The translations under genes and the position numbers were made by a program. Under the pieces are notes generated by a model that was given only the letters and a program-made list of their open reading frames with translations, made no database searches and was not told the DNA's origin. Of a stretch of 64,000 nucleotides of DNA, positions 28,187 through 64,000 are shown in pieces (the stretch's first letter is position 1; each line of letters begins with the position of its first letter). The DNA is from the human T2T-CHM13v2.0 reference genome, Homo sapiens, in assembly GCF_009914755.1 (NCBI RefSeq), contig NC_060934.1; one strand, 5' to 3'.

Positions 28187-28765
<579 letters not shown>

Positions 28766-38519: not shown

Positions 38520-39853
<1,334 letters not shown>

Positions 39854-42807: not shown

Positions 42808-42917
42808 TAATGCCATGAAAGTCTTTATTTGGAGGCTATTCTCTGGATTCTTCCATAGAATTATTGGTTGGGGGATTTGCATCTTCATCTGAACCCCAGA
42901 CACCCATTCCAAGATTA
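42808..42917 (-). pseudogene. Decayed exon, probably post-catalytic region of the DUSP11-like gene (NLGMGVWGSDEDANPPTNNSMEESRE*PPNKDFHGI)
   Basis: tttttcttctag acceptor, A|gtaaca donor, 110 nt, phase 2-1, one internal TAG; same strand as and downstream of the 57975-58106 exon. Confidence 0.6.
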
Positions 42918-43869
42918 CTAGAAGAAAAATATCAATAAACAACAGAAGCTTAAAATTCAATCAGAAACAGTCACAGGCTTTTAGAAACATAAGCTGAACA
43001 CAAAATAAGAAAAAGGCAAATCTACACACCATTCATATCTTGGGAATCTATAGATATGTTGCCATTTGTCGTAGTGGAAACAAGAATAATACATCATCAA
43101 GCACAATTTTAGAGAGTATTTTCAATTGTTAGGATATACCCATTTTCTCCTGTGGCCAAGAGAGCATAAAAATTATTAAGGGTTTAAAGAATAGGCACTA
43201 TGAGGAAAGTTTAAAGGAAGAGATAGAGAGGAAGTGGGAAATAGGTTATGGGTACTGAAGTACTGAATTAACTAATGAGCCCTTATAAGTATTTTTAGCT
43301 TCACCAAAATATAATCAAAACAGTATACAAGATAATAATGGCATTTTAATATCTTTAATAGTGGAGATTTAGTACTAATTTTGCTTACTATTCCTCTCTT
43401 CATTAGAGACTTTTCAAGAACTCTTGCTTCAATAGATGGTTATAAATTCCATTTTTTTCTTGTTGTAGATAATACACAAGTATCCCATGACTTTAAACAT
43501 GTTTTTACTTCATCACTTATAAGATGCATATAATCAATCTGAAATTCTACAGAAAAAATTATGCATATTATAATTTTGTTTAAAAGGAATTTTAGCTGGA
43601 TAGGGATTCCTGTACAGTCCTTTAGTACATAAGTAATGACTATTTGAGGTATAAATCTCAGAGCTAATAGCTAACACTTATTGAGCTCCTACCATATTTG
43701 GCACTGTGCTAAGAGCTTTACTTGTATTAACTCATTTAATTCTTACAACAACCTGTGAGGTATTATCTCCATATTATAGTTCAGAAAACTGCAGTACAAA
43801 AATCATAAAGTGGAAGCAGTGAAATTTAAACATAGGCTTTCTGGCTGTGCAGCCCATGTTCTTAGTTAA

Positions 43870-44233
43870 TGCTATGGACTGAATGTTTGTGTGCCCCTAA
43901 AATTTATATGTTGAAGCCCTAATCCTCAAGTGTGATGGCATTTAAATGTGGAGACTTTGAGGAGTAATTAGGTCATGAGGGTGGAGCTCTCATGAATGGG
44001 AATAGTGCTCTTATAAGAAGAGACATAAAAGAGATGATCTCTTTCTTGGATATGTGAGGATACAGCAAGAAGGTGTCTGTTTGCAAACCAGGAAGAGAGC
44101 CTTCACCAGGAACTGAATGAGCTGGCATCTTGATCTTGAACTTCCCAGCTGTCAGAACTGTAAGGAATAAATTTCTGTTGTTTACACTACCCAGTGTATG
44201 GTATTTTTGTTAACAGCAGTCTTAACTAAGACA
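43870..44233 (+). mobile_element. MLT1/MST solo LTR inserted in a MIR
   Basis: tgctatggactgaatgtttgtgt ... aataaatttctgttgttt ... ctaagaca. Confidence 0.8.
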
Positions 44234-44499
44234 GCCAAAAAGTTATATTGTCTCTTTCCAACGAGGTAATTGATTTTAAGTACAAAGCAGTGGCCAGCCC
44301 TGTTCTATTTAGTACATGAGTCAACATGAGTTCAGGAAAATTTTACTTAAGTCTAATCTATTCCTAATTCAAATTATTTCTGGCCAGTTTGAATAAATCC
44401 TCCCAGATAACTCTAGTTTTCTTTCCAATACTGACCTCCAAATTACTTGAGCAGGACCTGCCTTTTTCTGAGGACTACATTTAGTCTGAAATATCTGGG

Positions 44500-44800
<301 letters not shown>

Positions 44801-44955
44801 CTCTAGTCTGAAATATCTTGATACTCACCCTCTACAAGCCTTTCCTCTTTCTGAGCTGTAGCTTACCTAGACACCTGAATTTCCTTTTCAGCTATCATTC
44901 GTTGGAACCCAGACCTGGTAGGTGTTTCTTAAAATTTTCAGGCAGTTTATTTTCA

Positions 44956-45482
<527 letters not shown>

Positions 45483-45639
45483 TCATTTGTGGGTCCCCAA
45501 GACCAGTGTCATCCTTTTAAACTAGACAAACGCTTAAACCTCATATTTTCAATTCAGTCCAACAAATATTTATGAAGAACCGAAGTAGTATTTGACCTAA
45601 AATGGCTAGTCAAAGCTGGTCCATATTTACAATCTAATT

Positions 45640-45955
45640 ACATAGGCTCTTAAAACTGGAGAACCTTTCTGGCTGTGGAGATGTGACTATGGGTGAAAGT
45701 TACACAGAGATGCAAAGTTGTTGACTTTGAAGATGAAGGAAGGGGGCCAATATCCATGAAGTGTGGGTGGCATCTAGAAGCTGCAAAAGGCAAGGAAACA
45801 AATCCCCTGTAGGGCCTCCAGGAAAGAATGCAGGCCTGGTGACACCTGATTTTAGCCCACTGAGACCCTCGTTGGACTTCTAACCTACGGAACTGTAAGG
45901 TTTTTTAAGCCACTAAATTTGCGATAATTTGTAATAGCAGCAATGGAAAATCAAC
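45640..45955 (+). mobile_element. MLT1 LTR fragment
   Basis: 'tctagaagctgcaaaaggcaaggaaaca...ttttaagccactaaattt...agcagcaatggaaa'. Confidence 0.7.
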
Positions 45956-46275
45956 CCATTGGCACTGATCACAAACTCAAATTTCCAATTTCCTCTCTGG
46001 TCCAAGTATCAACCCAAAAAGTAGGGATGTAAAATAGAACTCTGATTCATGAGGGCAGTGAATCTAGAAGGTTCTCAGACATGGGTACATGAAATGATCA
46101 CTTTTTAATTTTGATGTAATTGCTCTTGGATGGGACCAGACATCAGGTTAAAAAAATGTCATAATAAATTCTAATGTATAATTAAGTTCAAAACTCTATT
46201 CTAGGAACAAAAGAAAATAAGCATCTGAATTGCCTGTTGAGGGAATAACTTTGTTCTCTAATAGGTACCCAGGAC

Positions 46276-46566
46276 TTTTTCTTTTTTTGAGAGACAGAGT
46301 CTCACTCTGTCACCCAGGCTGGAGTACAGTGGCACCACCATGGCTCACTGCACACTCAACCTCCCAGGCTCAAGTGATCCTCCTGCCTCAACCTCCCAAG
46401 TAGCTTGGACCAAGGTACACACTACCACACCCAGCTAAATTTTTATTTTTTGTAGAGGTGGGATCTTCCTATGTTGCCCAAGCTGGTCTTGAACTCCTGG
46501 GCTCAAGTGATCCTCCTGGCTCAGCCAAAGTGCTGGGATCACAGGTGTGAGCTACTGTGCCTGGCC
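46276..46566 (-). mobile_element. AluJ
   Basis: Reverse Alu. Confidence 0.9.
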
Positions 46567-47059
46567 AGTAGCTAAGATTTCTTAGAAGACAAACACCATA
46601 TCCTTACACCCAAACTGGTACAGCTAGAAGTTTTATAGACAGCAGTCAGCACAGGTTGCCAAGATGAGCAAAGCTGTGTTTCATTAAAGCATTACGAGGG
46701 TTATCCTTCAGATTTTAGCCAAAGGACTACGTACACAACTGCAGGCACCTGTGCCCCAGCAGTTCAATGACTTTGAGAGCTGGTGAAGCTAATTATCTCT
46801 TCTCTACTTAATGCATCAACCTGGGTGATTGGTACCAAGTGAGAAACCTGGGAATCAACCCATTCTTCCCCCCAACTCACTCACCTACATCTCTTTGCCA
46901 TTATTTTAATAAGTCTCTCTTTAAAAATCTTCAACTGTTTTCCTCACCATCTCTTCTGCCACTGCCTTAGATTAGGCCCCTAATTAATTTTTCCTTTAAT
47001 TTCTGTAATTGTTCCCACACTAATCTCTGTGCCCCCAACCTACTTCCATTCTTCGATAC

Positions 47060-47876
47060 TGTGAAACATATATTTGGTCATAGTCCATTTCCTGACATAC
47101 AACTCCCAAAACCCTTGGAATCTCCAGAGTGGTAAGAGTGCCTTTTGTATACTACTGAGATGACTGGTGATTGGGGCCCCTGATAGCCTCAGCACGGGGA
47201 CTGGTCCTCAGAAAAACCAAGGCAGGATTAAAGTGTTGGGACTTTCAGCTCTATCCCCCAACCTTTGGGGAGGGGAGAAAGGCTGTAGGTTAATCTCCTT
47301 GCCAATGGCCAGTAATTTAATCCATCATCCTACCTAACGAAGCTTCCATAAAAATACAAAAGGCTTGGGTTTGGACAACTTCTGGATAGCTGAACATGCG
47401 GAGGTTCCTAGAAGGTGGCTTGCCTGGAAAGGGCATGGAAGCCTGGCTCCCCTTCCCGCGTACTTTGCCCTGTGCATCTCTTGTCTGGTTGTTCCTCTGT
47501 ATCCTTTGCAATGTCCTTTTTAATGAATGGGTAAACATAAGTGTTTCCCCGCATACTGTGAGTCACTCTAGGAAATTAATAGAATGATTTAGGAGGGGTT
47601 GTGGGAACTCTGATTTATAGTTGTCAGAAGTACAGACTGCAACCTGGGGCTTGTGATTGGCATCTGAAGTGGGGGACAGTTTTGTAAGACTAAGTCCTCA
47701 ACCTATGGGATCTGATGCTATCTCCAGGTAGATAGTGTCAACAGAATTGAATTAGCGGACACCCAGATGGTGTACATAGCAGAACTGCTTGATGTTTGTG
47801 GGAAAATCCCCACACATCTGGAGTCAGAAGTGTTGAGTAGCTGTGTGAGAGCAGGGAAAATACCTTTTTTCCTACA
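47060..47876. mobile_element. Solo LTR (MER21-like)
   Basis: TG...CA ends; 'ggttcctagaaggtgg...gggcatggaagc', 'atctgatgctatctccaggtagatagtgtca' motifs recalled from MER21. Confidence 0.65.
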
Positions 47877-48677
47877 TGTAACCTATCTATTCGAATCTAT
47901 CTTACTCTCTGGTGCCAGAATGATCTAAGATACATAACTTATTATGTGACTTCTACATAAAATGCCTCTGTGACTACATTTTGCCTTTAGGTTGCAATTC
48001 AAATCTTCGTAAGACAAGTCAGCTCCTTGGAGCTCTCACCCTTGCTATCTGCCCCTAGGTGAACCTATAATCTAGGCATTCTCACTACTTGTGAATCCCC
48101 CATGCGCCATGCTTTCACACCTCTGTGATCCAGCTTACATTGTTTTCTTTGCCTAGCCAACTCTTCCTTTACATTTCTGCTCAGACATCAGAATACTGAC
48201 TCCACTTCTCCATTAACCTTCTCTGAGTACCCATACTTTCACTATCTGAAATTGCCTTATTTGTTGAATGCCTTTCTCCAGCACCATCCACACATTCGTT
48301 GTTTCATCCCATCATCAAATGTGTTTTAGGTGCCCAAAATATTCCAGATACCGTTTAAACACTTAGAGATACCAAATCAATCAAAGTCCCTGTCCTCAAG
48401 AGGGACAGACCAAAAGCAAGTACACACATCATCTCTGATAGTAATAAGTGCTTTGAAGGAAATCAAGATCATACAATCAACAGTGACTAGAAGAGAGGAA
48501 CAGCACTAAATAAGACAGTCATGGAAGGCTGGCCCTCTGAGAAGGTGACATTTGAACCGAGCCATGCAAAGATAAAGCATTCTAGGCAGAGGAAACAGCA
48601 AGTGCAAAATCCCATCATATAAGGCCTTGCAAGCCCACACAGATTTACAATCTTCATGGCCTGGTCTGGGTTAACCT

Positions 48678-49244
48678 GAAATAATCAAAAGGATCAAAAT
48701 CCAGTCGAGATTATTCAAGTAAAAAGCTGGGAATAGCCATTTGGGAGACACAGACTCCAGAGAAATAGAGTCAGTGTTCCAAAGTTCAAAGTTAAATTAT
48801 TGCATATATAGGCAGAAAACAAAGAAGTTTAGTAGGTTTATAACATTTTCTAGAACGCTAGTTTATGAGTTTCTTTTCTGTATGGCTTGTTTTCTTTACA
48901 GTTGGTTTTCCTTTCTGATTTAAAAGAGGTATTTAACACTCCATCTTAACACGGTGTGATAGCCATGAAACCTTTGGGTGAGAAACTAAAAGGGAAGTTA
49001 ATCTATAATAAAAATCAACAGTAACAGGGAAGGGGTCTTTCCTGGAGCCCTTTAGTCATTTGTAACATTTTGTACAACAATGTAAGCAAGGAGGAAGGTT
49101 AATCTATAATCATAGAAACAAAGATTACAGCTTCCCAGGTTACAGCTGCTTGTAACGTGACTCAGGCCCCATAATCACATTTCTTTAAGGATCAAAATAG
49201 TTTGGAGTTCCAACAGCTTAGATTTTGAATTACTTATTTTCACA
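48678..49244. mobile_element. ERV1-type solo LTR
   Basis: tgaaataatcaaaagg ... ttattttcaca ends with LTR-like composition. Confidence 0.5.
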
Positions 49245-50408
49245 CCTGTCTTATTCATTGCTGAATCCTCAGAGCTAAGCAGAGTGCCAGGACACAGTAG
49301 GTATTCCATAAACACTTGTGGAATGGATAAAGTGTCTATTTGCTGGTTTACTTACCTATCTCCTTGAAGGCAAGGGCTCCTTCTGACCTCTGTAGGTCTA
49401 GTGTTGAGCTGTATGCCTGGCACATAGAGGTGCTTAACAGAGTTGCTAAGCAGCATATAAAAGATGTTGCTTGAGTACCATACAGCATATAAAAGATGTT
49501 GCATGAATACCATTATCTTCATTAGAGAAGATAAAATTAAATGGAAAGTATTCTTTAGGAATATGCCACTGAGTTTAGGCTAAAAGACACTAAGATTTTT
49601 GAATTGTTCCAGTGTTGCTTAGTTTCATAAAGTAGAAAACTGACATCCAGGCATGTTATAAAAGCAATCTTCTCAGGGAAAAATTATATATTAGTATCTA
49701 TAAATAGCAATCACAACCTTAGATGGATATTAATGTTGACATGAGCTCAGAAAATGACTTATATGAATTCTAGTAAAAGATCCCCAGAGTTAATTTTCTG
49801 GTATTGTTAATTTTCAGATGTCATCTATTGGGAAGAACATTTCTTTAGGTAGGGACTAAAAACAAGCACAAGTAAAAGGTTGCAAAGGGAAGAAGACTAT
49901 AAGGAGAGAACATTTTATCAAGCAGCTCTTATAAGAAATTAGGAACCAATAAATTTTCCTCCCAGAATACCTGAATAAATACTGAGAAGGAAATCCCTAG
50001 CTTTCAGGCAAAATTCAGTTTCTGGTTTGATTTTATTTAGCTTATGAAACACTGAAAGATCATAATGCAAACAAAACAGATATGGTGTCAAAGAAACAAA
50101 TATACATAAAACATTCATTCTTTTTATGAGCTATATAAACTATCCCAAAGACCTGTGATTTGAAAAGAAAGTGTTCCTTAGAGAAGTGGGGATTTTGTAC
50201 ATAACTGAGGTATGCGAAACATTTAGGGGTCATCTGGCAGACATGACAGCCAAAGTGACAAGAGAATGGGAATAAAAGCAAAGCCAAAGAAAGAGTTTTA
50301 TAAAACCTCTACAGTGAGAAGAATAGGAGACAACCAAAGTGATTGAGAGCTATCAGAAAAGAGGCAAACCTGGATAATTACTGTGTTCAAAATAAAAAAA
50401 TATAAGTA

Positions 50409-50634
50409 CAGGTTGAGGATCCCTCATCCATAATGCCCAGAAGTGTTTCAGATTTCAGATTTTTGTGGATTTTGGCATATTTGCACTATGCCAGTTGAGC
50501 ATCCATAATCCCAAAATCTGAAATCTGAAATGCTCTAATGATCATTTCCTTTGAGTGTCAGTTTGGTGCTCAAAAAGTTCCATATTTCGGAGCATTTCAA
50601 TTTTCAGATATTTGGATTTGGCATTCTCAATCTG
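50409..50634. mobile_element. Tigger/MER2-group MITE (MER46-like)
   Basis: TIRs caggttgag...ctcaatctg flanked by TA. Confidence 0.75.
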
Positions 50635-51129
50635 TATGTGTAGATGCCAGATGCTGCAAAGAAAAGGCTGCAGGATTTGGCTAGATTGTTGGTGATTTCT
50701 GAGAAGGCAATTTCATTAAGTGGTGAAAACAAACCACACATTTAAGAAGAGAATGGGACAGTAAAGAAATGGAGGTGGTGATCACAGCCAAGGTGTTTTC
50801 AAATGTTTGACAATAGGCACAACAAGAAAGTGGAATAGTAGTTCATACAAGAGAATAGAAACCAACAGAATACTTCTAGGTATATTTGAAAGTAAGAGGA
50901 AAGCGGCAAGGGAGATTTAAGATGCCAGAGAGGAAAGTGATAGGGACAGTGAGATCCTAGAGCTAAAAAGGAATCACATTCTGTAGAAATGAAAGATTTT
51001 TTTCTTTAAAAAAAAAAGGAAAATTTTTCTAAGAATAAGGCAAAGACTAATAAAAAGGGAAATGGGGTAGTGATCTATTCTTATAGTGATAATTAAATTC
51101 TATTGCCAATAATCTTAAGCTTTATTGTA

Positions 51130-52325
51130 AAGAATGAATCTAAATGGGATAATGGCAGAAAGCCACTCAGGAATACAAAATGCAAATTATAAATAGGGAA
51201 ATGCAAATTAAAAGCACAATGACATACCCTTTCAAACCCACTAAAATAATAAATAAAAATGATAGACAATAACAAATATTGGCAAGGCTAAACTCACCTT
51301 AAATAGTTGGGCAATTTGTTTAAAAGTTAAATATAAATTTACCATACGACCCAGAAATTTCACTCCTAGATATCAATCCATGAGAAATGAAAACATATAT
51401 CCATACAAAGACCTCCATATGAATGTTCTTAGCAACCTTATTAACAGTAGCCAAAAATGGGAAACAACTGAAATGTCCACTGTGAACCCTGAATATCTGA
51501 GATAGGTCTCAGTTAATTTAGAAAGTTTATTTTGCCAAAGTTGAGGACATGTGCCTGTGAGACAGCCTCAGGAGGTCCTGATGACATGTGGCCAAGATAG
51601 AGCACAGTTTGGTTTTATACATTTTAGGGAGACATGAGACATAAATCAAATATATAAGATGAACACTGGTTTTGTCTGGAAAGGTGGGACAACTCAAAGC
51701 TGGGAGGGGGCTTCCAGGTCATAAGTAGATAAGAGACAAATGGCTGCATTCTTTTGAGTTTCTGATTAGCCTCTCCAAAGGAAGCAATCAGATATGCATT
51801 TATCTCAGTGAGTAGAGGGGTGACTTTGAATACAATGGGAGGCCGGTTTGCCCTAAGCAGTCCAGGCCTGACTTTTCCCTTTAGCTTAGTGATTTTGGGG
51901 CCCCAAGATTAATTTTCCTTTCACACCACCTACTGATGAATAGGTAGACAAAATGTGGTATATCCATATAATGTACTATTATTCAGCAAAAACACAAATG
52001 AACTACTGATATATGCTGTATATCATGGACAAACCTCAAAAACATTATGCTAAACGAAAGAAGCCAAACACAAGAGACCAATATTGTATGATTCCATTTA
52101 TATGAAATGTCCACATGAGACAAATCTCTAGAGACAGAAACTACATTAATTGTTGCCTGGGGTGGGGGAATAGGAATGAACAATTCATGAACATGAAGGT
52201 TCTTATTAGGGAGATAGAAGTGTTTTAAAACTGATGTACAGTAATAGATGCATAAATAGGTAAATTTAATAAAAATCATTAAATTGTATGCTTGAAGTGG
52301 GTGAATTATATGGTATGTTAAATAC
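51130..52325 (+). mobile_element. Old L1M 3' fragment split by an LTR insertion
   Basis: L1 3' motifs continue across 51481-51924. Confidence 0.75.
51481..51924. mobile_element. MER4-like ERV1 solo LTR
   Basis: tgtgaacc...tttcctttcaca, 4-bp TSD CCAC. Confidence 0.8.
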
Positions 52326-54050
52326 CTAACCAACAAACAAATGGAAACACATCCCATGTACATGGATGGGTAGATTCAATATTGTGAAAATGACCATACC
52401 GCCAAAAGCAATCTGTAAATTCAATGCATTCCCATCAAAATACCACTGTCATTCTTCACAGAACTAGAAAAAACAATCCTAAGATGCATATGGAACCAAA
52501 AAAGAGCCCACATAGTCAAAGCAAGACTAAGCAAAAAGAACAAATCTGGAGATATCACATTACCCGACTTCATACTATAAGGCCATAATAACCAAAACAG
52601 CATGGCACTGGTATAAAAAGAGGCACATAGACCAATGGAATAGAAGAGAGAACCCAGAAATAAAGTCAAACACTTACAGCCAACTGATCTTCAACAAAGC
52701 AAACAAAAACATAAAGTGGGGAAAGGATACCCTATTCAACAAATTGTGCTGGGATAATTGGCAAGCCACATGTAGAAGAATGAAACTGGATCCTCATCTC
52801 TTACCTTATACAAAAATCAATTCAAGATGGATAAAAGACTTAAATCTAAGACCTAAAACCATAAAAATTCTAGAAGATAACATTGGAAAAACCCTTTTAG
52901 ACATCGGCTTAGGCGAAGACTTCATAACCAAGAACCCAAAAGCAAATGTAACAAAGATAAATAGATGGGACTTAATTAAGCTAAAAAGCTTCTGCACAGC
53001 AAGATAATAATAATAATAATAATAATAATAGTAATCAGCAGAGTAAACAGACAACCCACAGAGTGGGAGAAAATCTTTGCAATCTATGCATCCAATGAAG
53101 GACTAATATCCAGAATCTACAGGAACTCAAACAAATTAGCAGGAAAAAAACAAACAGTCCCATCAAAAAGTGGGCTAAGGACATGAATAGACAATTCTCA
53201 AAATAAGATATACAAATGGCCAACGAACATATGAAAAAATGCTCAACATCACTGATTATCAGGGAAATGCAAATCAAAACCACAATGCAATACTACCTTA
53301 CTCCTGCAAGAATAGCCATAATCAAAAAAATAAAAATAAATAGATGTTGGTGTGGATGTGGTGAAAAGGGAACACTTTTACACTGCTGGTGGGAATGTAA
53401 ATTAGTACAACCACTATGAAAAACAGTGTGGAGATTCCTTAAAGAACTAAAAGTAGAACTACATTTGATCCAGCAATCCCACTACTGGGTATCTACCCAG
53501 AGGAAAAGAAGTCATTATACAAAAAAGATACTTACACACACTTGTTTACAGCAGCACAAGTCACAATTGCAAAATCTGCAAAAATATGGAACCAGTACAA
53601 ATGCCCATCAATCAACGAGTGGATAAAGAAAATGTGGTGTGTATACACACACACACAAACACACACACACACACACACCCACGAGGGAATACCACTCAGC
53701 CACAACAAGGAATGAAATAATGGCATTTGTAGCAACCTGGATGGAACTGGAGACCATTATTCTAAGTGAAGTAACTCAGAAATGGAAAACCAAATATCGT
53801 ATGTTCTCACTCATAAGTGGGAGCTAAGCTATGAGGACACAAAGGCATAAGAATGATACAATGAACTTTGGGGACTTGGGGGAAAGGCTGGGAGAGGGGA
53901 TGAGGGATAAAAGAGTATACATTGGGTACAGTGTACACTGCTTGGGTGATGGGTGCACCAATATCTCAGAAATCACCACTAAAGAACTTCTGCACGTAAG
54001 CAAACATCACCTGTTCCCCAAAAACTATTGAAATAAAAAATATTAAAATG
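52326..54050 (+). mobile_element. L1PB-like 3' fragment containing (TAA)n and (CA)n
   Basis: ORF2 C-terminal peptides 52744-53007 and 53216-53419; L1 3'UTR with AATAAA. Confidence 0.9.
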
Positions 54051-55566
54051 AATAAACATCATATATAATTTGGTTTATCCAGTAAATGACTAACTTTAAG
54101 AGAAATTCACAAATTGATTTTAAATGATTTAAATTTTTGTAACAAATTAGAATCCCTTATGCTTGATAAAACAATTAGTAAAACTAAGTAGAATCAAGTA
54201 ATCTTTTCTGCATTTTAGTGTTCCTGATTCTTTTGAGCAAATATAGAAGGCCTGAAGACAATTTCATTTTAGAGTTTAAGAATTTTTCAGAATTTGTTTG
54301 ATCCAAATCCCTCCATGTACTGGGGTCACTTGTGACAAGAAAAAAGAAAACCTTGACCATGGTCACATGGTAAGTCGGTAGCAGAACTAGACAAAAACTC
54401 AGCTCTCCTGATTTCTAATCTAATACTTTTTTCATTATCCCATGCAACCTCCCACATTTTCAGAACAGAAACAGAAAAATTAGAAGGAGAAAAGTAACCC
54501 AAACTCATAGGACTGTATCTTTTTTGGATTCCTACAAATACTCTTAAGCTTTGTTTCAGGAAGCAGTTACTTGGAAACAGTTTGATCCTTTCAGGTCTCG
54601 CTGTTAAGACTTATTAGGTAAGATCAGAGTAGTGTTTAGTCTAGAGTTCATTCCCCACTATTGAGACAAGGCCCTTCTGAACTCTACCCAGCATCCTGTG
54701 AATTATGAGGTTTTCCATAGATCAGAGTAGTGTTTAGTCTAGAGCTCATTATTCCTTACTATTATGAGGTTTTCCATAGATCAGAGTAGTGTTTAGTCTA
54801 GGGCTCATTATTTCCCACTATTGAGACAAGGCTCTTCTGAATGCTACCCAGTATCCTGTGAATTATGAGGTTTTCCATAACCTCATAATGGCTGGTGGGA
54901 AAAGTCCCTATTGCCAGCCCTAAGTGAGCTCCAAGTACTGTTCCTTCTAATCTTCTAGAGTAGCTCTTTCTCCAGCCTCAGGTACTTTCCTGAAATGCAG
55001 GGAAACCTTCTGCATTCCAGGAAAGTATCTGAGGGTTGGTAAAGAGTACCCTAGAATACTCTCCCTGGGCAGTACTCTCTTGTCCAGTGCTAGCTGCCTT
55101 GGTTTCCCAGGCGTCTCAGTTCTGTCCCCTTAACTTGGCAGTGACTTGCTCCATCATGATTCCCACTTTCTGCACCATGACCTGGAAACTCTCTCAAGGC
55201 AGCAAGCTGGAACATTTCTCAGAGATCACTGTCCTTCATTGCCTGATATCCAACTTCTTGGAAATTGTTGTTTCATATATTTTCTTCACTTTTTTTTTTG
55301 TTGTTTCAGGTGGGAGGGTTAATCTGGTCCCTGTTACTTCCTCTTATCTGAAAGCAGAAGTCCCAGTGGCGTCATTTTTTTTTTCTTACTCTGAAATCTT
55401 GGGTCTAACAACTCTCTCCTACTTTATGAATTGGCTAATAACAATTCCTTTTCTTTTAATAGCCTTTTCTTTTATCTGTTCTCATAATGAGAAGCACAAT
55501 TAAATGCTTATAAAGCTTTGGTAAGAGGTACTTGGCAAAAATAAACAATTTAAGTATGATGACTAC

Positions 55567-55990
55567 TGACAAAGACTCTCCTTAAGCAAAATTTAGTCAG
55601 GTTCCTTTGAGCCCATTTTCTACTAGGCCCGGTACTTGGGCCTTGTCCTCAAGAGCAAGAATCCTGTTAAGTCAGTTTTGTAAGAATCCCATCCTCATAT
55701 CTGACCTCCTTCAATATCTGATCAAATTCCTCATCCTCCATTGCCCCCGAGGTGTTGTCTGATCATCCTGGCCTGCCTTCAGCAAGAATCCTGTTAGGTC
55801 TGTTTAACCAGAATTACCTCTTACCTTGATGTTTCCTCCTAGGAATTTTCCATCCACCGACCCCACTCTGTTCCTTGGTATGAATCCCCCCTTATTCTTC
55901 TTCTTTTCAGAACTGAGCACAGTTCTATACTCAAGTCCCTTACTTTATTCCAATAGTTCCTGAGTAAAATCTATTTTTTACTGCTTTCTT
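55567..55990. mobile_element. ERV1-type solo LTR
   Basis: 'tgacaaagactctcc...ttagtcagg', repeated 'agcaagaatcctgtta'. Confidence 0.55.
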
Positions 55991-56485
55991 TACTGTCTAG
56001 CTCTGGTTTTAATACTATGTCTAATTTTACATAAAAATCCTTTATCACATATTCCACACTTTGAAACTCTAGCACTATCAACACCTAAGCTGAAAATGGT
56101 CTCTTATCCCTTAAAATTAAGGTTGTAAAAGTATTAAACTAAACAATAAAAAAAAAATCCACCTTGTTGTCATTGGCTCTAATTCTATATACTCCAAATA
56201 CAAACAACTGTAGTGATTATGTCCCATTTAAGATTCTCTGCATTCCCTTTCCACATATTGGGAATTATTTCTATAAAGGCAGTAAGCAGGGTCAATGAAA
56301 ACTTTAATCATTGCATTTTGGAGCCAAAGGGGACCTCAGAAAATCAATTTCTAATTGCTATCTTTGTGGAGGTCAAAAACTGAAGTCTTGAAAGAATTTA
56401 ACTGTCTTACTACTATATTATAGGAGACATGAGACTCAGTCATTATCCATCTTGAATTTTTAGTGATTTAAAATGTAGTATTATA

Positions 56486-56792
<307 letters not shown>

Positions 56793-57608
56793 ATTTAGTA
56801 TTACCATTGAACTCAACACTTGAAAAATGGTAGAACCATCCACATGCATAGTAAAACTACTATTTCCTTTGACTTAAATCTGGAACTTTAAAATATCAGA
56901 CTTTAAAAGTGCATTAGCTTTTTAATCACTGGCATCATACTGCATCTAGTAAAATTCCACTTTTTCATGTGAACTGCTAAGACAGATGCTTTCATATCTT
57001 GTCACTGCAATTTTTAGTTTTCTCATAAGGTCTAAGAATTATTTTCCTCTAGAGCAGGGTTTTAAAATTCTGCTCTTCGAAGTGTCCTTCTGCCCCTTAG
57101 TCTGTGGGTGGAAAGTGAAGGAAGGAGAATAATTATCATGTCAAGTGGACTAAGTCTGGATCCTCAATCCCCTGCTTCAACCAACCCAACTCCCCACTTA
57201 CCATATCTGCTTTATATAACGGGCTTCGGAGCAAGATTTAATTGAAAGATTTCTCTGTTAAAGTTCAAAAATTACTGTTGTAATACCCATCTCACTTACG
57301 TTTTTATTTCTTCCGTTTTCATCATATTGCTGTCTTTCCCTCCTTTTGTTTCTCTGTCCCTTTTTCACTTTTCCTATTTGCAACTATATTTCCTTCTAGT
57401 TATTTTGCTTTTTTAAAAGGATAAGTTCAGTGTTTTTTTTCCTCTTTGCACAACCAATGGTTTTTAGAAAAAGAATATTGTATGAGTATATGAAGGACTA
57501 AAAACATTGCTAAGAGATTATTCATGGGCAATTCTGAAATTAATATTAAAATAACCAAGAGAATATCTTAATTCACTTTCCAAGTGCAGTATTAAAAAAA
57601 AAATTCTT

Positions 57609-57923
57609 GCCAGGTGTGGTGCCTCACGCCTGTAATCCTAGCACTTTGGGACGCCGAGGTGGGCAGATCATCTGAGGTCAGGAGTTTGAGACTAGCCTGG
57701 CCAACATGGCGAAACCCCACCTCTACTAAAAATACAAAAATTAGCCAGGCGTGGTGGCGGGCGCCTGTAATCCCAGCTACTCAGAAGGCTGAGGCAGGAG
57801 AATCACTTGAACCCAGGAGGCGGAGGTTGCAGTGGGCCGAGATCACGCCACTGCACTCCAACCCGAGTGACAGAGCAGGACTCTGTCTTAAAAAAACAAA
57901 ATAACAACAAAACAAAAAACAAA
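57609..57923 (+). mobile_element. AluS
   Basis: Alu consensus with A/C-rich tail. Confidence 0.94.
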
Positions 57924-57974
57924 CTTTCTATTTTAAGACCTACCCATGATAACAATATACATTTGCAACTTTAC

Positions 57975-58106
57975 CTTAACTTCATAATATCTTGTGGTGT
58001 ATGTTAAATCAATAATTAATCCGAGCTCCTCATTTAGTGCTTTTATTGAGCTAATCAAGTCTTTTGGTATAAACTTCTGGGTTGGAGTAAGTCTCTGATT
58101 AACTGT
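57975..58106 (-). pseudogene. Intact exon of a DUSP11/PIR1-like RNA 5'-phosphatase paralogue (TVNQRLTPTQKFIPKDLISSIKALNEELGLIIDLTYTTRYYEVK)
   Basis: tttttcatttttcatcatag acceptor, AAG|gtaaag donor, 132 nt, phase 0-0, no stop; aligns without gaps to recalled human DUSP11 SFEKKLAPEECFSPLDLFNKIREQNEELGLIIDLTYTQRYYKPE (23/44 identical by my count). Confidence 0.85.
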
Positions 58107-58256
58107 CTATGATGAAAAATGAAAAATAAGGTTATAAAATACAGATAAAATGTTAACATTAAACATAGAACAAGGAAGAGAAAAAACATAAGACAATAAA
58201 AAGACTTGGTGAAAATGTCATAGCATAAGAATATTGACAAGCTTTTAACTAACTAG

Positions 58257-59025
<769 letters not shown>

Positions 59026-59351
59026 TAAGGAGAAGGAAAATATATCACTTTTAAAAGTGGAATTTCAATTGTTTTTCTTCTATACTCATATGTTTTCCAT
59101 TTTTTTTCTATTTCCAACAGAAACTTTCTGTAAATGCTACTGTCATTACAGGATAAACTTCAAATCTACTGTGATTCTTTAAGGCCGTATACACACAGAC
59201 TTATCCATATATTGAGTCTTACCTTTCACCACAGATCCCACCTGGAAACACTCTCCAGTCCAGCAGCTCTCCTTACAGTCCAACAAATACCTTAAGTTCG
59301 TTCCTCTTTCTGTGTCTTGTACCTTTCCTTAGGCTCCTTGACCATCTAAAT

Positions 59352-59565
59352 CAGGGTTTCTCAACTGGGCACTAATATTTGGGGTGAAACATTGTTGTGG
59401 GGCTGTCCTGTGCATCGTGGGACATTTAGCAGCACCCCTGGCCTCTGCATACTGAATGCCAAGAGCACCCCCTCCCCAGACCCTCCAAGTTATGACAATC
59501 AAACATGTCTCCAGACATTGTCAAATGTCTCCTGGTGGACAAAATCACCCTGGCATGACTCACTG
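59352..59565. mobile_element. MER20-like hAT relic
   Basis: 'cagggtttctcaac...tgtctccagacattgtcaaatgtctcctgg'. Confidence 0.75.
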
Positions 59566-60221
59566 AAACTAATGCTTTAAGTAATTAATGTAATATAGTC
59601 CAAGTACATAAGTCTGAGTGGTCCAGCTTGATCCATAGGGAGTGATGAATGGACTGCACAGTCTTTAAATGACCTTCTGCAATAATACTTCTTTCAGCCA
59701 AACTTCTGAGAAAAAGTTAGGAAGGACAATTCTAGATTCTACTCTCTCACAAGAATCTGATGTGCTGGTGTTTTATATTGCTTAAGAATGGATCCATACA
59801 AATTAGAGGCCCACAGATATGAAGAGCAAACCCACAGTATCTAGCACTTGGTAAGCAGTCACTATTTTTTCTTAAAGCCAATTAGACAATAAGGCTGGCA
59901 TCTTACTGAGCAAGATAAGAAACTAGAACTCTTACCTAGATAGAAGAGTTCCATCTAGAGGAAGACTTGATACTAGAGAACTTTTATATATCACCAATCC
60001 TAACTGCCCCTTGAGGCCACTCCTAATTTGCAAAGTAAAAGTATGTTATCAGTGTACTGAAGATAATTACGCAGGAGTATGCACACAGTTCATTTAAAAG
60101 CCGTAAATGGTTAGATTCACATTGAAAGGAATCCAGGATAGTCTTATTTTGCACTTTTAAAAATATGTATTTAATCTGCCACGATATCTGCTATCTGTAG
60201 TGTTATTAAAATGCAGGTTTT

Positions 60222-60516
60222 CATCATTCTCAGCAAAGTAACACAAGACGAGAAAACCAAACATGGCATGTTCTCACTCGTAAGTGAGAGTTGAACAATG
60301 AGAACACATGGACACAGGAAGGGGAACATCACACACCGGGGCCTGTGGGGGGGTGGGGGCTGGAGGAGGGATAGCATTAGGAGAAATACCTAATGTAAGT
60401 GACGAGTTGATGGGTGTAGCAAACTAACATGGCACATGTATACCTATGTAACAAACCTGCACATTGTGCACATGTATCCCAGAACTTAAAAAGTATAATT
60501 TAAAAAAAAAAAGAAG
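60222..60516 (+). mobile_element. L1PA 3' end
   Basis: L1 3'UTR; TSD aaaatgcaggtttt. Confidence 0.93.
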
Positions 60517-63148
60517 AAAAATGCAGGTTTTATAGAAACATCAGTTAACTGAAGTATATATTAAGTTTATGCGACTTATAACTAGTTACTGTCTACTAAA
60601 ACAAAGGTCAATGTAAGCTGTGCATAACAAAATATTAAATTTGACAGACCTTCCCACAAAATAGGTATACTACTGCTCTATAAATCTATAGATCAAGAAA
60701 ACTGATCTATAGATTGATTTATAGGTCAATAGTATGGCTATATTTGAATCTCACTTGCTTTTCATTAAGATAAAAGTGAATTGAGAAGCAAGCAAAATAG
60801 TGTTTTACTGGGCAACACTGGTAAATATCAGGGTCTAAATTTAATCTGAGGAACATAAAAATTCCTCAGATTATTTTGCAACTATTCATAATATGAAAAG
60901 TCAGATTTATGCAGAGAATCAAGATCCAATTACAGAGCAACTTAACATAAAAGCTCTATAAGCCACACACTTTTAAAAATGTATCAAAAGCAGGTACTAC
61001 CAAGAATATACAGTTGCTAAAATTGGGGAGGTAAATACTTTGTTCAACTCCAAATAATTGGTGACAGTATAAATTTCTTTAAGCCACATTCTTCTTGCCA
61101 GGAAAGAAGCTGGGTTTAAGGAAAACTCAGCTGCTTGCTACCGATTTGAGCTGGAAGAATGAGTCAAACTAACATTCACTTATGCAGCAGACAGCAACCC
61201 TGTTCACACCTTTGTCTTAAGTTAGGTGACGGGGCATCAACTACCCTTTAGGACACCTACAATTCCATGGTAAAATGTCAGCAATAAGCTGGGCCTTGTT
61301 CTCTTTTGGGGTCTCAGAGTGGTCTTACCCTCAACCACTAAATGTAAAAGAATCCCTTTGAAAATCACCCCCCAACTTTTGAAAATGAATGCTGAACTGA
61401 ATAGTATTTTTTTGGAGTGAGGTTTTGCTAAAGAATGAGCAATAATAAATTTAAGCTTCAATTACTTTTTGTGCTATTGCTATATAATTTTGAGTTAGTT
61501 CATTTTGTAAGTAACAAAGATGAAAATCACAAAAGATTTATTGAAAGCTGTTTATGGCAGCATATACTAAAACCTAGATGCAAAGACAGTTCCTTTCTCA
61601 TTTTGGAATCAGTATTTATTCTTTTCTACCAGCCCCCATCCCTGCCCATCTTTCTCTCTCTTCTTGTGTGTTTGTTTTGCAGGGGAAAGCAGAGGGGGAA
61701 GTAGAGACCTTTCTTTTTTTAGGTTAATACAGTGAAACTCCACTTAAAATGGACTTCCTGGATTCCCTTCCAGAGATTGGTTCAAAAACTCTGTGATGGA
61801 GTTCAGGAATCTGCATTTTAAATAAACACTCCTAATAACTTTGATGCTGGTAGTCCAAGAACAACACTGAAAAGCAAGGTGCATGGATAAGTAGAGTAGT
61901 GTTTTGCCAGGTGGAACAGTCCATTCTAGGCAGAGAACAGAAGTAAAGGCATGATGGCATCAATGTGCATCATGTGCCTGAGGAACAGGTGCTTAAGGTC
62001 CTTAACTTTGCTGGTCCTCAGTTTCTGCGTCTGATAAAAGAAGAGCTGACCTACATTGTTTTTGAGGTCCTTCCCAAAGTTAATATTTGATCATCACCCA
62101 AAGTACACAGGAATCATGGTTCACTGTTCACAGATGATACTGTGCTAATTGCTACTCATTTATTCAACAAACAAATGAAGAAATTCAGTGTCAGCCCTCA
62201 GTTTTTAGTCTGGTGGAGAGAGAGACAGATGAGTAATTACTATACAGTGCCATACAGAAGGAATTAGTGGTGGCATCACAAAGAAAGTAATGCTTGAGCA
62301 GAAACTTTATGGGGAAAAGTTGACAGGATTCCAGCAAGGAATGGCTCGTGCAAAGAAAACTACATGCTGTGACCAGGATACAGTTAATGGTTTAGCATGG
62401 TTTTAGCACAGTGTGCATGCTGGAGAATCGCAGAAAAACAAAGTTTTGGAAGAAAGGAGCTAGTTCATATATGTCAGGCAGAGCTCAGATTTTACTATAT
62501 GGAGGAACTGAAAGCAGGGGATCAGGTCTGCACTTTAGGAACACAGTTCTGGTGATAATATAATGAAAGAAACAAGAAGGAGATAACTGGGAGACAAGTT
62601 AGTTAGTCAGTGAATGTCAAGAGATGCTGGCTGCTAAAGCACAGCCATGAGGACAAAGACAGGCTCCAAAGAACAGCTATTCAGGCAGCAGAATTAACCT
62701 GCTGAATGTGTGTGGAATGACTTTAAAAAATGGAATTTCAGGATTGTTCTTAGTTTTCACTGGGGTGACTGAGCAGATACTGGCCTCATTCACGAAACAG
62801 GAAACACAGGGAATAAGTCTGGGGAGGGAAGGTTGGTTTTGAACTCTATACATTTCGGGTACTTTGGGTACTGGGGTAAGGGTGTCACCGTCAGGAGCTC
62901 AGGTAAGAAGTCCAGGCTAAAGAGAGATTTGGAGGTCATTTCCCTAAACTGGTGGTTGAAGCTAAGAGATTACTCATAGGGAACAACAGAAACTGAAAAG
63001 AGAAAAAGATCAAGGACAAAACCTTAAAGAGCAACAACTGCGGGAAGGGGGACAGAGGGAAAGGTTTGTTTATTTTTATGACAAACTTCAACATGTCTAG
63101 ATGCCAAGGAGAAGAAAATGACTACAAAAGCATAGAAAAGGTATTAGA

Positions 63149-63370
63149 GCAAGCTTGTCCAACCTGCAGCCCACAGGCTCCATGTGGCCCAGGACTGCTT
63201 TGAATGTGGCCCAAGACAAATTTGTAAACTTTCTTAAAACATTTTGAGAGTTCTTTGCAATTTTTTATTTTTTGAGCTCATCAGCTATCGTTAGTGTATT
63301 TTATGTATGGCCCAAGACATTTCTTCTTCTTCCAATATGGCCCAGGGATGCCAAAAAATTGGATACCCCA
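63149..63370. mobile_element. MER30-like hAT relic within L2 remnants
   Basis: 'caagcttgtccaacc...ttttatgtatggcccaagaca...ttggatacccc'. Confidence 0.75.
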
Positions 63371-64000
63371 CACTAGAGCAAGATCCCAGAGGAACTGGTA
63401 CTGCAAATTTAAAATAACCTAAGAGGTGGGAGAAGAATGGTAGAAACTGATGTTTGCGAAAACAATGAAACAAGGAAAGTTCAAGACTGGGAAATGGTCT
63501 ACAGAGCCAAGTGCAGAAAAGAAGCCTAAGAAGATATTTTGGGTTTGGCAATCACAAAGTCCTTGGTGGCATGATTAGGTGGCGGAAGCCAGAACTCTGT
63601 GGGTAGAAGAGTTAACAAGTAAGGGAAGGGAAAAAAAGATTACCTTTTTCTCTAAATGTGGCTGTAAAAAAGGAGAGAGAGAAGAAATCTGAGAATAATC
63701 CCAGTTGATGGTTTTTCTTTTTGTTTTTGTTTTGTTGGATAGGGCAGATAAAGCCAGGGGAGGGAGGTGGGGAAAGGGTATACTGAAGATAAAAAGGGAG
63801 GGTTAAATGATGAAATAAGGCCCCAGAGGAGACAGAATGAATGGGATCTAGGACATATATTGGATCATCTGTAGATAGAAAAAAAAAAAAGAAATAAATC
63901 AAACATACCTCTTCATCTGAGACAGGATATCTGCTGATGTTAAGTTGGCCTGGTGGTCAGTGTCACAGTATTCATGTCTGAGAGTCTCTGTTTCCTCTGA

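What the first reader, a model, noticed from the sequence alone, without database searches (positions are those of the whole stretch)
57975..58106. Pristine 132-nt DUSP11-like exon missed by the ORF track
Seen: strong polypyrimidine acceptor, AAG|gtaaag donor, 44 open codons, phase 0-0. The recalled human DUSP11 segment is also 44 aa and aligns without gaps, with 13 consecutive identities (NEELGLIIDLTYT) plus RYY. It is closer to DUSP11 than to RNGTT (recalled GLLVDLTNTSRFY). Inference: its intactness compared with the other exons may be chance at this length, or may mean it is still spliced into antisense transcripts (ENTPD1-AS1 is known on this strand), i.e. a lncRNA born from a dead enzyme gene.
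Basis: partly seen in the sequence, partly recalled or inferred. Interest (0 to 1): 0.8.

Follow-up and report, generated by a model that had tools for sequence, protein, structure and literature searches.

The report
Relic exon of lost DUSP11 paralogue
The intact-looking 132-base exon is a leftover of a second DUSP11-type RNA phosphatase gene that dogs, bats, birds and sharks still have but humans have lost, and its good state is about what chance would leave.

Summary
Observation confirmed. 57975-58106 (minus strand) is 44 open codons between ...catcatag| and |gtaaag. It matches human DUSP11 (PDB E 1.6e-9) in 23 of 44 residues. The matching DUSP11 exon on chr2 is also exactly 132 nt, in the same phase.

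It is not a DUSP11 copy. It is 40-41 of 44 identical to a separate, deeply conserved vertebrate paralogue. Sources name it 'dusp11 gene 2'/dusp11.2 in Xenopus and 'RNA/RNP complex-1-interacting phosphatase-like' in dog. Protein models exist from sharks to carnivores, bats, pangolin and armadillo; no primate model was found.

The rest of the human gene lies collinear on the minus strand as decayed exons (7, 8, 9, 10 and a probable exon 1a). The exons for residues 11-35 and 80-180, including the catalytic loop, were found nowhere in the genome. This is a unitary pseudogene.

Chance explains the intactness. The human lineage made 4 residue changes, one at a site where 0 of 103 orthologues carry the human residue. 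Simulated probability of staying intact is 0.3-0.5.

The lncRNA idea is partly supported. The RefSeq ENTPD1-AS1 exon 35616-35758 starts at the relic exon-10 acceptor. Its end coincides with a splice position implied by a bat protein model. The 132-nt exon is not in the supplied RefSeq models. Junction data could not be checked.

The parts
57975..58106 (-). Relic exon 2 of the dusp11.2 unitary pseudogene: 132 nt, 44 open codons, phase 0-0, no indel relative to orthologues
   Evidence: sequence and translation. (DUSP11 E 1.6e-9). (orthologue cluster E 1.6e-16, 93% identity). (40 of 44 identical to dog, 41 of 44 to armadillo). (the DUSP11 exon is also 132 nt).
58107..58130 (-). Acceptor of exon 2: pyrimidine-rich tract ending in AG at 58108-58107
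   Evidence: read directly from the sequence.
57969..57974 (-). Donor of exon 2: gtaaag after AAG
   Evidence: read directly from the sequence.
42814..42917 (-). Relic exon 7 (SNLGM...DFHG). It carries one in-frame TAG where orthologues have W, one extra codon, and GC instead of GT at the donor.
   Evidence: colugo guide, 80.6% identity, E 4e-12. (profile E 0.0056). (sequence).
38520..39814 (-). Relic exon 8, the large repeat-rich C-terminal exon. There is no AG at the expected acceptor (reads ...cacatg|GG). It has 6 in-frame stops across HSPs 8b+8c (1+5), at least 2 frame changes between HSPs, and an Alu inserted at 38598-38920. The donor gtcagt is kept.
   Evidence: alignments; stops 0+1+5 in HSPs 8a-8c. 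(splice sites). (Alu).
37323..37361 (-). Relic exon 9: 39 nt, open, with cag| acceptor and |gtaaat donor. This is a second undamaged small exon.
   Evidence: E 0.034, 11 of 16 identical to colugo. (bat, E 0.001). (sequence). (the exon is skipped in carnivore models, which fixes its boundaries).
35563..35758 (-). Relic exon 10, up to the TAA at the mammalian stop position, with 2 in-frame stops and 1 indel. Its acceptor (AG at 35760-35759) is the 5' end of ENTPD1-AS1 NR_038444.1 exon 35616-35758. It lies antisense inside the ENTPD1 3' UTR.
   Evidence: colugo, E 1.5e-15, 59% identity. (sequence). Hub gene table (ENTPD1-AS1 exon 35616-35758; ENTPD1 last exon 25276-36364).
35461..35531 (-). Alternative terminal coding segment (CRTEEKGNIMIYHQEK...), open to a TAG. 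In the bat Saccopteryx protein model it is joined to exon 10 across an 84-nt gap that begins exactly at 35616|35615, the ENTPD1-AS1 donor.
   Evidence: one tblastn HSP with a 28-codon gap. (CAAAG|gtaaaa and ...cctatag|ATTGC).
58107..64000 (-). Upstream part of the dead gene inside the window. It should hold the exon for residues 11-35 (WRTV...PLKG), but no relic of that exon was found. The probable exon 1a lies beyond the window end, at window-equivalent 66751-66780 (L006 2751-2780). It reads LVKKKSIPSG followed by gtgagt, with CTG where orthologues have ATG, at the CC2D2B start (66760, + strand).
   Evidence: no hit for residues 11-35; exon 1a 7 of 10 identical, E 11-22 alone, so weak. (sequence and donor). 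(a Pteropus insertion marks an exon boundary right after ...IPNG).
42918..57968 (-). Interval between relic exons 2 and 7, where exons 3-6 (residues 80-180, including the catalytic HC..G..R loop) should lie. None was detected, so they are inferred to be deleted.
   Evidence: only non-collinear chance-level hits. (no copy elsewhere in the genome apart from DUSP11 and one chr6 match).

Best explanation
The 132-nt frame is exon 2 of the human unitary pseudogene of dusp11.2. This is an ancient vertebrate paralogue of DUSP11 (PIR1). It has a cysteine-phosphatase RNA 5'-phosphatase-type catalytic core followed by a long repeat-rich tail. The gene once ran on the minus strand from the CC2D2B promoter region to inside the ENTPD1 3' UTR. 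In the human lineage it died. The exons for residues 11-35 and 80-180, including the HC..G..R catalytic loop, are gone. The start codon position reads CTG. Exons 7, 8 and 10 carry stops, frame changes, lost splice signals and an Alu insertion. Exon 2, like the 39-nt exon 9, has simply not yet been hit by a disabling mutation. It shows relaxed, not maintained, protein constraint. It encodes no working enzyme. Because its splice signals survive and it lies inside the ENTPD1-AS1 transcription unit, occasional inclusion in that lncRNA is possible. That is inference only, and no selection needs to be invoked. Shown: homology, shared exon structure, the other relic exons and their lesions, absence of the catalytic exons, the paralogue clade, and the coincidence of an ENTPD1-AS1 exon with relic exon 10. 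Inferred: enzymatic activity of the intact orthologues, deletion as the cause of the missing exons, and timing of the loss.
For: Homology and exon structure:
- Match to DUSP11 at E 1.6e-9.
- Identical 132-nt, phase 0-0 exon in DUSP11 on chr2.

Orthology to the paralogue:
- 40-41 of 44 identical to dog and armadillo, against 23 of 44 to human DUSP11.
- Of 169 ungapped homologous segments, 113 are closer to dog dusp11.2; the relic matches these at 20-41 of 44 (median 33). The other 56 are closer to DUSP11; it matches these at 13-27 (median 23).
- A tree of 29 catalytic domains splits DUSP11 from dusp11.2 with 100/99 support on both sides. Bird, turtle, crocodilian and caecilian sequences sit in the DUSP11 clade, while other bird, turtle and crocodilian sequences sit in the dusp11.2 clade.

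Rest of the gene:
- Collinear relic exons on the minus strand.
- Lesions read directly from the sequence.

Missing catalytic exons:
- None found by tblastn at E up to 1000, or 50 with the colugo guide.
- None found by a 7-sequence profile with filters off (only exon 2 at 6.7e-22 and exon 7 at 0.0056 stand out).
- None found by a whole-genome six-frame search. Of its 14 matches, 5 are chr10 relics and 4 are DUSP11 exons. One on chr6 covers the catalytic-loop residues; I take it, from recall, to be RNGTT. The last 4 have E>2.

Relaxed constraint:
- 4 human differences from the mammalian majority, against 0-3 in 11 other mammalian models.
- Ile at position 13, where 0 of 103 orthologues have Ile (T 95, S 5, G 3).

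Chance:
- Joint probability of no stop, no indel and kept AG/GT is 0.48 at d=0.03 and 0.30 at d=0.05, with 2.5-4.1 expected residue changes.
- The Alu inside exon 8 differs from the local Alu consensus at 16 of 260 non-CpG columns, or 6.2%.
- Human-branch excess over the colugo branch is similar in exon 2 (+4.7%) and in exons 8-10 (+6.9%). The Fisher test of exon 2 against exons 8-10 gives p=0.12.

Taxa:
- No primate protein appears among the listed hits of three searches.
Against: - Exon 2 has the lowest human-branch change rate of the relics: 3 of 43 columns, against 65 of 379 in exons 8-10.
- Exons 7, 8 and 10 together carry 8 in-frame stops in about 400 codons.
- If true neutral divergence since the loss were 0.12, the joint chance of exon 2's state falls to 0.06. 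The chance of 4 or fewer residue changes falls to 0.05.
- Both neighbours of exon 2 (the residue 11-35 exon and exons 3-6) are gone while it survives with both splice sites.
- An ENTPD1-AS1 exon demonstrably reuses relic splice sites, so reuse of exon 2 cannot be dismissed.
- Not testable here: nucleotide-level comparison with other primates, and synteny of the orthologues.
- The orthologues are gene predictions. Their source names are automatic annotations.
Confidence: 0.8

Rival explanations
1. Exapted lncRNA exon. The exon stays intact because it is still spliced into ENTPD1-AS1 or another antisense transcript. Selection then acts on its splice signals or RNA sequence, not on the protein.
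For: - Both splice signals are intact.
- The exon lies on the ENTPD1-AS1 strand, within that gene's span (hub table).
- ENTPD1-AS1 exon 35616-35758 coincides with the relic exon-10 acceptor and with a bat-model splice position. This lncRNA therefore does recycle the dead gene's exons.
- Exon 2 shows the fewest human-branch changes of all the relics.
- A 2026 paper's Table 1 lists ENTPD1-AS1 among lncRNAs with many candidate micropeptides: 35 over 10 aa, longest 99 aa (passage only).
Against: - The hub table lists no ENTPD1-AS1 exon at 57975-58106 among the four RefSeq transcripts.
- An open reading frame is irrelevant to an lncRNA exon, so the 'pristine' frame is not explained by this idea.
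- The lower change rate is not significant (p=0.12). It is matched by an equally low colugo-branch rate (1 of 43), so it reflects constraint before the loss.
- The one supplement of the micropeptide paper held as text contains neither the exon's peptide nor the gene name.
Confidence: 0.13
2. Still-coding exon of an unannotated human gene or short protein that keeps the N-terminal part of the phosphatase fold.
For: 44 open codons with good splice sites. Exon 9 and the alternative terminal segment are also open.
Against: - A CTG stands at the orthologous start.
- The preceding coding exon and the catalytic exons are absent genome-wide.
- Downstream exons carry stops and broken splice sites.
- A residue conserved as T/S/G in all 103 orthologues is replaced by Ile in human.
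- No primate protein models were found.
Confidence: 0.02
3. A fragment of a DUSP11 duplicate or retrocopy, rather than an orthologue of a separate ancient gene.
For: 23 of 44 residues are identical to DUSP11, with a 13-residue identical run.
Against: - Introns are retained at both ends of the exon, so it is not a processed copy.
- It is much closer to dusp11.2 than to DUSP11: 40-41 against 23 of 44.
- The relic C-terminal exons have no counterpart in DUSP11.
- The two clades are separated with 100/99 support, and cartilaginous fishes sit inside the dusp11.2 clade.
Confidence: 0.01

Closest known systems
Vertebrate dusp11.2. Sources name it 'dual specificity phosphatase 11 (RNA/RNP complex 1-interacting), gene 2' in Xenopus tropicalis, 'dusp11.2.S' in X. 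laevis, 'RNA/RNP complex-1-interacting phosphatase-like' or 'uncharacterized LOC...' in dog, fox, otter, panda, seal, bats, pangolin and armadillo, and 'DUSP11RC1I' in chicken.
   Same: Exon 2 is 40-41 of 44 identical. Relics of the family-specific repeat-rich C-terminal exons are collinear. Exon boundaries are the same where the models reveal them.
   Different: The human copy lacks the exons for residues 11-35 and 80-180, including the catalytic loop. It has CTG at the start, plus stops, frame changes, two broken splice sites and an Alu insertion. It is a pseudogene. Synteny of the orthologues could not be checked.
Human DUSP11 (PIR1), chr2; solved structures 4jmj, 4mbb, 4nyh.
   Same: Same fold family. 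The dog orthologue's core matches 4mbb at E 1.3e-62 over 180 residues. The 132-nt exon has the same length and phase. The P-loop exon is 18 of 20 identical between dog dusp11.2 and human DUSP11.
   Different: It is a paralogue, not the parent: only 23 of 44 identical in this exon. DUSP11 is intact and has no counterpart to the relic C-terminal exons. DUSP11's RNA 5'-triphosphatase activity is recalled knowledge, not tested here.
lncRNAs that are fossils of ancestral protein-coding genes (Hezroni et al. 2017, PMC5577775; title and abstract seen in the listing, text and supplements searched by term only).
   Same: An annotated lncRNA (ENTPD1-AS1) has an exon whose acceptor is that of a relic coding exon. 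Its donor coincides with a splice position implied by a bat model.
   Different: ENTPD1-AS1 starts about 190 kb upstream of the dead gene's presumed promoter (hub table) and skips relic exons 2, 7, 8 and 9 in the RefSeq model given. [quoted passage not shown]
mRNA capping enzyme RNGTT triphosphatase domain and baculovirus polynucleotide 5'-phosphatase (2c46, 1i9s, 1yn9).
   Same: Same cysteine-phosphatase RNA 5'-phosphatase superfamily. The exon matches 2c46 at E 0.008. The dog orthologue matches these chains at E 4e-27 to 3e-25.
   Different: Much more distant than DUSP11 or dusp11.2.

Membership tests
DUSP11/PIR1-type cysteine-phosphatase RNA 5'-phosphatases (Pfam PF00782 core) | Significant sequence homology to the DUSP11 core | tested here: met
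   E 1.6e-9 to 4jmj, 4nyh and 4mbb over residues 4-42. Pfam alone gives no hit for the 44-aa piece (0 families at E up to 10).
DUSP11/PIR1-type cysteine-phosphatase RNA 5'-phosphatases (Pfam PF00782 core) | Catalytic P-loop (HC..G..R) encoded at the locus | tested here: not met
   No exon for residues 80-180 was found in the window plus 7 kb, or anywhere in the genome apart from DUSP11 and one chr6 match that I take to be RNGTT. The human locus cannot encode an active enzyme.
DUSP11/PIR1-type cysteine-phosphatase RNA 5'-phosphatases (Pfam PF00782 core) | Intron positions shared with DUSP11 | tested here: met
   Both exons are exactly 132 nt, phase 0-0, and align without gaps.
Vertebrate dusp11.2 orthologue group | Closer to dusp11.2 than to DUSP11 | tested here: met
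   20-41 of 44 (median 33) identical to 113 dusp11.2-type segments, against 13-27 (median 23) to 56 DUSP11-type segments; the two clades are split with 100/99 support.
Vertebrate dusp11.2 orthologue group | Family-specific C-terminal exons present and collinear | tested here: met
   relics at 42917-42814, 39814-38520, 37361-37323 and 35758-35563, in order on the minus strand.
Vertebrate dusp11.2 orthologue group | Conserved gene neighbourhood (between ENTPD1 and CC2D2B) in species that keep the gene | not testable with these tools
   No annotated vertebrate genome other than the window's own was available.
Unitary pseudogene | Disabling lesions in a copy that keeps its introns | tested here: met
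   start position reads CTG, 8 in-frame stops, frame changes, an Alu inside exon 8, exon-7 donor GC, exon-8 acceptor lost, and exons missing.
Unitary pseudogene | No intact copy elsewhere in the same genome | tested here: met
   a genome-wide six-frame search with the dog protein finds only the chr10 relics, DUSP11 exons, one chr6 match (taken to be RNGTT) and 4 matches with E>2.
Unitary pseudogene | Intact, constrained orthologues in other species | tested here: met
   catalytic halves are near-identical among 9 mammalian models; terminal branches in the amniote dusp11.2 subtree are short (0-0.12). These are predicted proteins; their function is untested.
lncRNA exon derived from an ancestral coding exon | An annotated lncRNA exon coincides with the relic exon and its splice sites | tested here: not met
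   For the 132-nt exon, the hub table lists no ENTPD1-AS1 exon at 57975-58106. For relic exon 10 the feature is met: exon 35616-35758.
lncRNA exon derived from an ancestral coding exon | Transcript evidence (junction reads, long reads) for inclusion | not testable with these tools
   No expression data or GENCODE isoform table was available.

The most novel reading that the evidence does not exclude
ENTPD1-AS1 is in part the transcriptional afterlife of a lost enzyme gene. Primates discarded a second DUSP11-type RNA 5'-phosphatase that is kept almost unchanged from sharks to dogs and bats. The splice-competent survivors of its carcass are exon 2, exon 9 and exon 10. Exon 2 is bracketed by inverted Alus. 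On this reading, these exons are maintained because they are still spliced, linearly or as circles, into ENTPD1-AS1 isoforms with a regulatory role at the ENTPD1 (CD39) locus.
Probability: 0.1. Interest if true: 0.6.

Novelty: new member of a known kind. Interest (0 to 1): 0.42.

Why it matters
The finding places an unannotated unitary pseudogene in the supplied RefSeq T2T table between ENTPD1 and CC2D2B. It also shows that humans lack a second DUSP11-type phosphatase.

Among the species that keep the gene, the catalytic half is almost invariant. My searches found no primate protein model.

From recall, DUSP11 removes 5' triphosphates from RNAs and thereby dampens RIG-I-type sensing. A lost paralogue that carnivores, bats and pangolins keep would therefore be a reasonable candidate for lineage differences in RNA handling or innate immunity. 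That link is untested.

The locus also gives a clean example of an lncRNA (ENTPD1-AS1) reusing splice sites of a dead coding gene.

For the specific question asked, the answer is ordinary: the exon's intactness needs no explanation beyond chance.

Tried and rejected
1. Processed or duplicated DUSP11 copy. Rejected: introns are kept, and identity is 23 of 44 to DUSP11 against 40-41 of 44 to dusp11.2.

2. Still-coding gene. Rejected because of the lesions and the missing exons.

3. Hunt for the missing exons (residues 11-35 and 80-180). I used tblastn with the dog catalytic part at E up to 1000 (hits below 200 printed) and the colugo protein at E up to 50. I also used a 7-sequence profile with filters off, and a genome-wide search. 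Only non-collinear chance-level hits appeared, for example 56224-56165 (E 2-6) and 44321-44250 (E 18). I did not accept them.

4. Pfam on the 44-aa piece: 0 families.

5. Rfam on 57300-58800: 9 sub-threshold matches, all to SRP or mir-1268/mir-3135 models and all in the flanking Alus. None overlaps the exon.

6. Literature searches:
- 'dusp11.2': 0 papers.
- DUSP11 + 'unitary pseudogene': 0 papers.
- DUSP11L / DUSP11-like / DUSP11P / DUSP11B / DUSP11RC1I / 'DUSP11 paralog': 1 paper, unrelated.
- DUSP11 + pseudogene + phosphatome: 1 paper, unrelated.
- DUSP11 + ENTPD1: 2 papers, unrelated by title and abstract.
- ENTPD1-AS1 + pseudogene: 17 papers, 15 listed, none about origin by title or abstract.
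- Subscription journals and database records are not covered by these searches.

7. Micropeptide paper PMC13675225: its one held supplement has no occurrence of the exon peptide or of the gene name.

8. Earlier findings of this scan were not open to the session.

9. Dating the loss. I obtained only a rough lower bound, from the Alu inside exon 8: 6.2% non-CpG difference from a home-made consensus of the 16 Alu copies in the window. The Alu subfamily was not determined.

Full report
**1.
- On the minus strand, 57975-58106 reads 44 codons without a stop.
- A pyrimidine-rich tract ending ...catcatag| precedes it. AAG|gtaaag follows it.
- The peptide's best solved-structure matches are three human DUSP11/PIR1 chains (E 1.6e-9). 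The capping enzyme RNGTT follows at E 0.008.
- A six-frame search of the window's own genome finds two places only: this exon and a DUSP11 exon on chr2.
- Read directly, that DUSP11 exon is also exactly 132 nt between ...gtgacag| and |gtaagt, in the same phase.
- The two translations align without gaps, with 23 of 44 identical.
- The shared intron positions exclude a processed copy.

**2. It is not a DUSP11 copy but the remains of a different, ancient gene.**
- A scan of 1.84 billion representative proteins gave 77 hits at E up to 0.001. The best were 86-93% identical over the whole exon.
- The word-indexed library shows who they are:
  - dog, jackal, fox, seal, otter and panda;
  - five bats, two pangolins and an armadillo;
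  - a colugo;
  - many birds, turtles, crocodilians and squamates;
  - amphibians, where sources call it 'dusp11 gene 2' or 'dusp11.2';
  - coelacanth, sharks and rays.
- The proteins are about 560-780 aa long. An N-terminal PF00782 core is followed by a long repeat-rich tail.
- The dog core matches DUSP11 structure 4mbb at E 1.3e-62. It matches the baculovirus and capping-enzyme RNA phosphatases at about 1e-25 to 1e-27.
- A tree of 29 catalytic domains separates DUSP11 proper from this group, with 100/99 support on each side. I attempted 31 sequences; two were dropped because my anchor motif was not found in them.
- Cartilaginous fishes sit at the base of the second group. Bird, turtle and crocodilian sequences occur in both clades. 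These are therefore old paralogues.
- Of 169 ungapped homologous segments, the human relic matches 113 paralogue-type segments at 20-41 of 44. It matches 56 DUSP11-type segments at 13-27 of 44.

**3. The rest of the gene is there, broken.** With dog, gecko, colugo and bat proteins as guides, the minus strand carries these relics in order.
- Exon 7 (42917-42814):
  - a TAG where orthologues have W;
  - one extra codon;
  - GC in place of the donor GT.
- Exon 8 (39814-38520):
  - no AG at the acceptor;
  - 6 in-frame stops and at least two frame changes;
  - an Alu inserted at 38598-38920;
  - donor kept.
- Exon 9 (37361-37323): 39 nt, open, both splice signals kept.
- Exon 10 (35758-35563): 2 stops, ending at a TAA at the mammalian stop position.
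- Probable exon 1a (window-equivalent 66780-66751), 2.7 kb past the window at the CC2D2B start:
  - it reads LVKKKSIPSG followed by gtgagt, with CTG where orthologues have ATG;
  - alone this is weak (E 11-22);
  - its place, strand and donor fit, and so does an exon boundary at the same residue revealed by a Pteropus model.
- The exons for residues 11-35 and 80-180, which include the HC..G..R loop, were not found:
  - not by tblastn at very permissive thresholds;
  - not by a profile with filters off (only exon 2 at 6.7e-22 and exon 7 at 0.0056 rise above noise);
  - not genome-wide.
- A 16-residue exon at 69% identity was detectable (exon 9, E 0.034). I therefore infer that the missing exons were deleted rather than eroded.
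- The locus is a unitary pseudogene. The supplied RefSeq table has no row for it.

**4. Is exon 2 better preserved than chance allows? No.**
- Residue changes:
  - Against the mammalian majority sequence, the human exon has 4 changes.
  - The 11 other mammalian models have 0, 0, 0, 0, 0, 0, 1, 1, 1, 2 and 3.
  - One human change puts Ile where 0 of 103 full-length orthologues have it (T 95, S 5, G 3).
  - That is relaxed constraint.
- Branch comparison, with colugo as sister and nine other mammals as outgroup:

| Exon(s) | Human-branch changes | Colugo-branch changes | Human excess |
|---|---|---|---|
| 2 | 3 of 43 | 1 of 43 | +4.7% |
| 7 | 3 of 35 | 2 of 35 | +2.9% |
| 8-10 | 65 of 379 | 39 of 379 | +6.9% |

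  - The excess in exon 2 is similar to that in exons 8-10. The difference in human-branch rate is not significant (p=0.12).
- Simulation on the exon itself, giving the joint probability of no stop, no indel and intact AG/GT:

| Divergence d | Joint probability | Expected residue changes |
|---|---|---|
| 0.03 | 0.48 | 2.5 |
| 0.05 | 0.30 | 4.1 |
| 0.08 | 0.14 | 6.4 |
| 0.12 | 0.06 | 9.2 |

- The Alu that interrupts exon 8 differs from a consensus of the window's 16 Alus at 6.2% of non-CpG columns. This points to d of roughly 0.05 or more since that insertion.
- About six relic exons were examined. A second small one (exon 9) is equally undamaged. One or two survivors are therefore expected.
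- Against this reading:
  - Exons 7, 8 and 10 carry 8 stops, which hints at more decay than exon 2 shows.
  - Four of the stops in exon 8 are TAA, and the region is rich in Gln and Arg. I did not model this quantitatively.

**5. The lncRNA idea.**
- The hub table gives ENTPD1-AS1 NR_038444.1 an exon at 35616-35758 on the minus strand.
- Its 5' end is exactly the first base after the ...gttattag| acceptor of relic exon 10.
- Its 3' end (CAAAG|gtaaaa) is exactly where the protein model of the bat Saccopteryx leaves exon 10. That model skips 84 nt and resumes in a downstream segment that is still open in human (35531-35464).
- So an entire ENTPD1-AS1 exon appears to be an inherited coding exon of the dead gene. 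In that sense 'an lncRNA born from a dead enzyme gene' is partly right.
- For the 132-nt exon there is no such evidence. The table lists no ENTPD1-AS1 exon there. I could not see GENCODE isoforms or junction reads.
- ENTPD1-AS1 also starts about 190 kb upstream of the old promoter, so it is not simply the old transcript.

**6. Taxonomic pattern and literature.**
- Three searches list no primate, rodent or ungulate model. These were the catalytic half (best 120 of 617 hits listed), exon 2 against longer proteins (120 of 197 listed) and the colugo C-terminal 434 residues (15 of 15 listed).
- This is absence from prediction sets within the length windows searched. It is not proof of loss in each lineage.
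- The colugo model lacks the 36 residues of the catalytic loop.
- An elephant model of 108 aa runs past the exon-2 donor.
- Both hint at independent decay.
- I found no paper describing this paralogue or a human relic of it.
- The 2017 paper on lncRNA fossils does not mention ENTPD1, DUSP11 or CC2D2B in its text or in the 4 supplements held as text.

**7. Verdict.**
- The finding is real and cleanly explained. It is a relic exon of an unannotated unitary pseudogene of dusp11.2, intact by chance.
- The modest novelty lies elsewhere:
  - the gene loss itself, of a highly conserved second DUSP11-type phosphatase missing in humans;
  - the reuse of its exon 10 by ENTPD1-AS1.

Noticed in passing
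window 57613-57915 (+) and 58465-58929 (-): The 132-nt exon is bracketed by Alu elements in opposite orientation. One starts about 60 nt downstream of the donor. The others start about 360 nt upstream of the acceptor. From recall, inverted Alu pairs around an exon favour back-splicing or skipping. Rfam gives only sub-threshold SRP, mir-1268 and mir-3135 matches in them.
   Followed up: partly
window 35461-35615 (-): The sequence after the mammalian stop of relic exon 10 still resembles the longer C-terminus of a gecko protein (IDYNYG..., E 0.017). It also resembles the alternative C-terminus of a bat model, across an 84-nt gap. The ancestral gene seems to have had alternative 3' ends, and the segment 35531-35464 is still open in human.
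   Followed up: partly
proteins P0127 (colugo) and P0008 (Asian elephant): The colugo model lacks exactly the 36 residues of the catalytic loop but keeps all other exons open. The elephant model has exons 1-2 and then reads into what looks like intron. These may be independent losses of the same gene in other mammals.
   Followed up: no
L006 2751-2780 (window-equivalent 66751-66780, outside the window): The probable first coding exon of the dead gene overlaps the annotated CC2D2B start (66760, + strand) head to head in a GC-rich stretch. This suggests a former bidirectional promoter.
   Followed up: partly
window 37323-37361 (-): A second undamaged relic exon: 39 nt, open, with both splice signals. 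Carnivore models skip it.
   Followed up: yes
window 39300-38950 (-): Three in-frame stops fall within about 8 codons of relic exon 8, inside a repeat unit that reads G.QR.RPF in orthologues. Four of the five stops in this HSP are TAA. I did not work out codon by codon whether this reflects Gln/Arg codon content.
   Followed up: no
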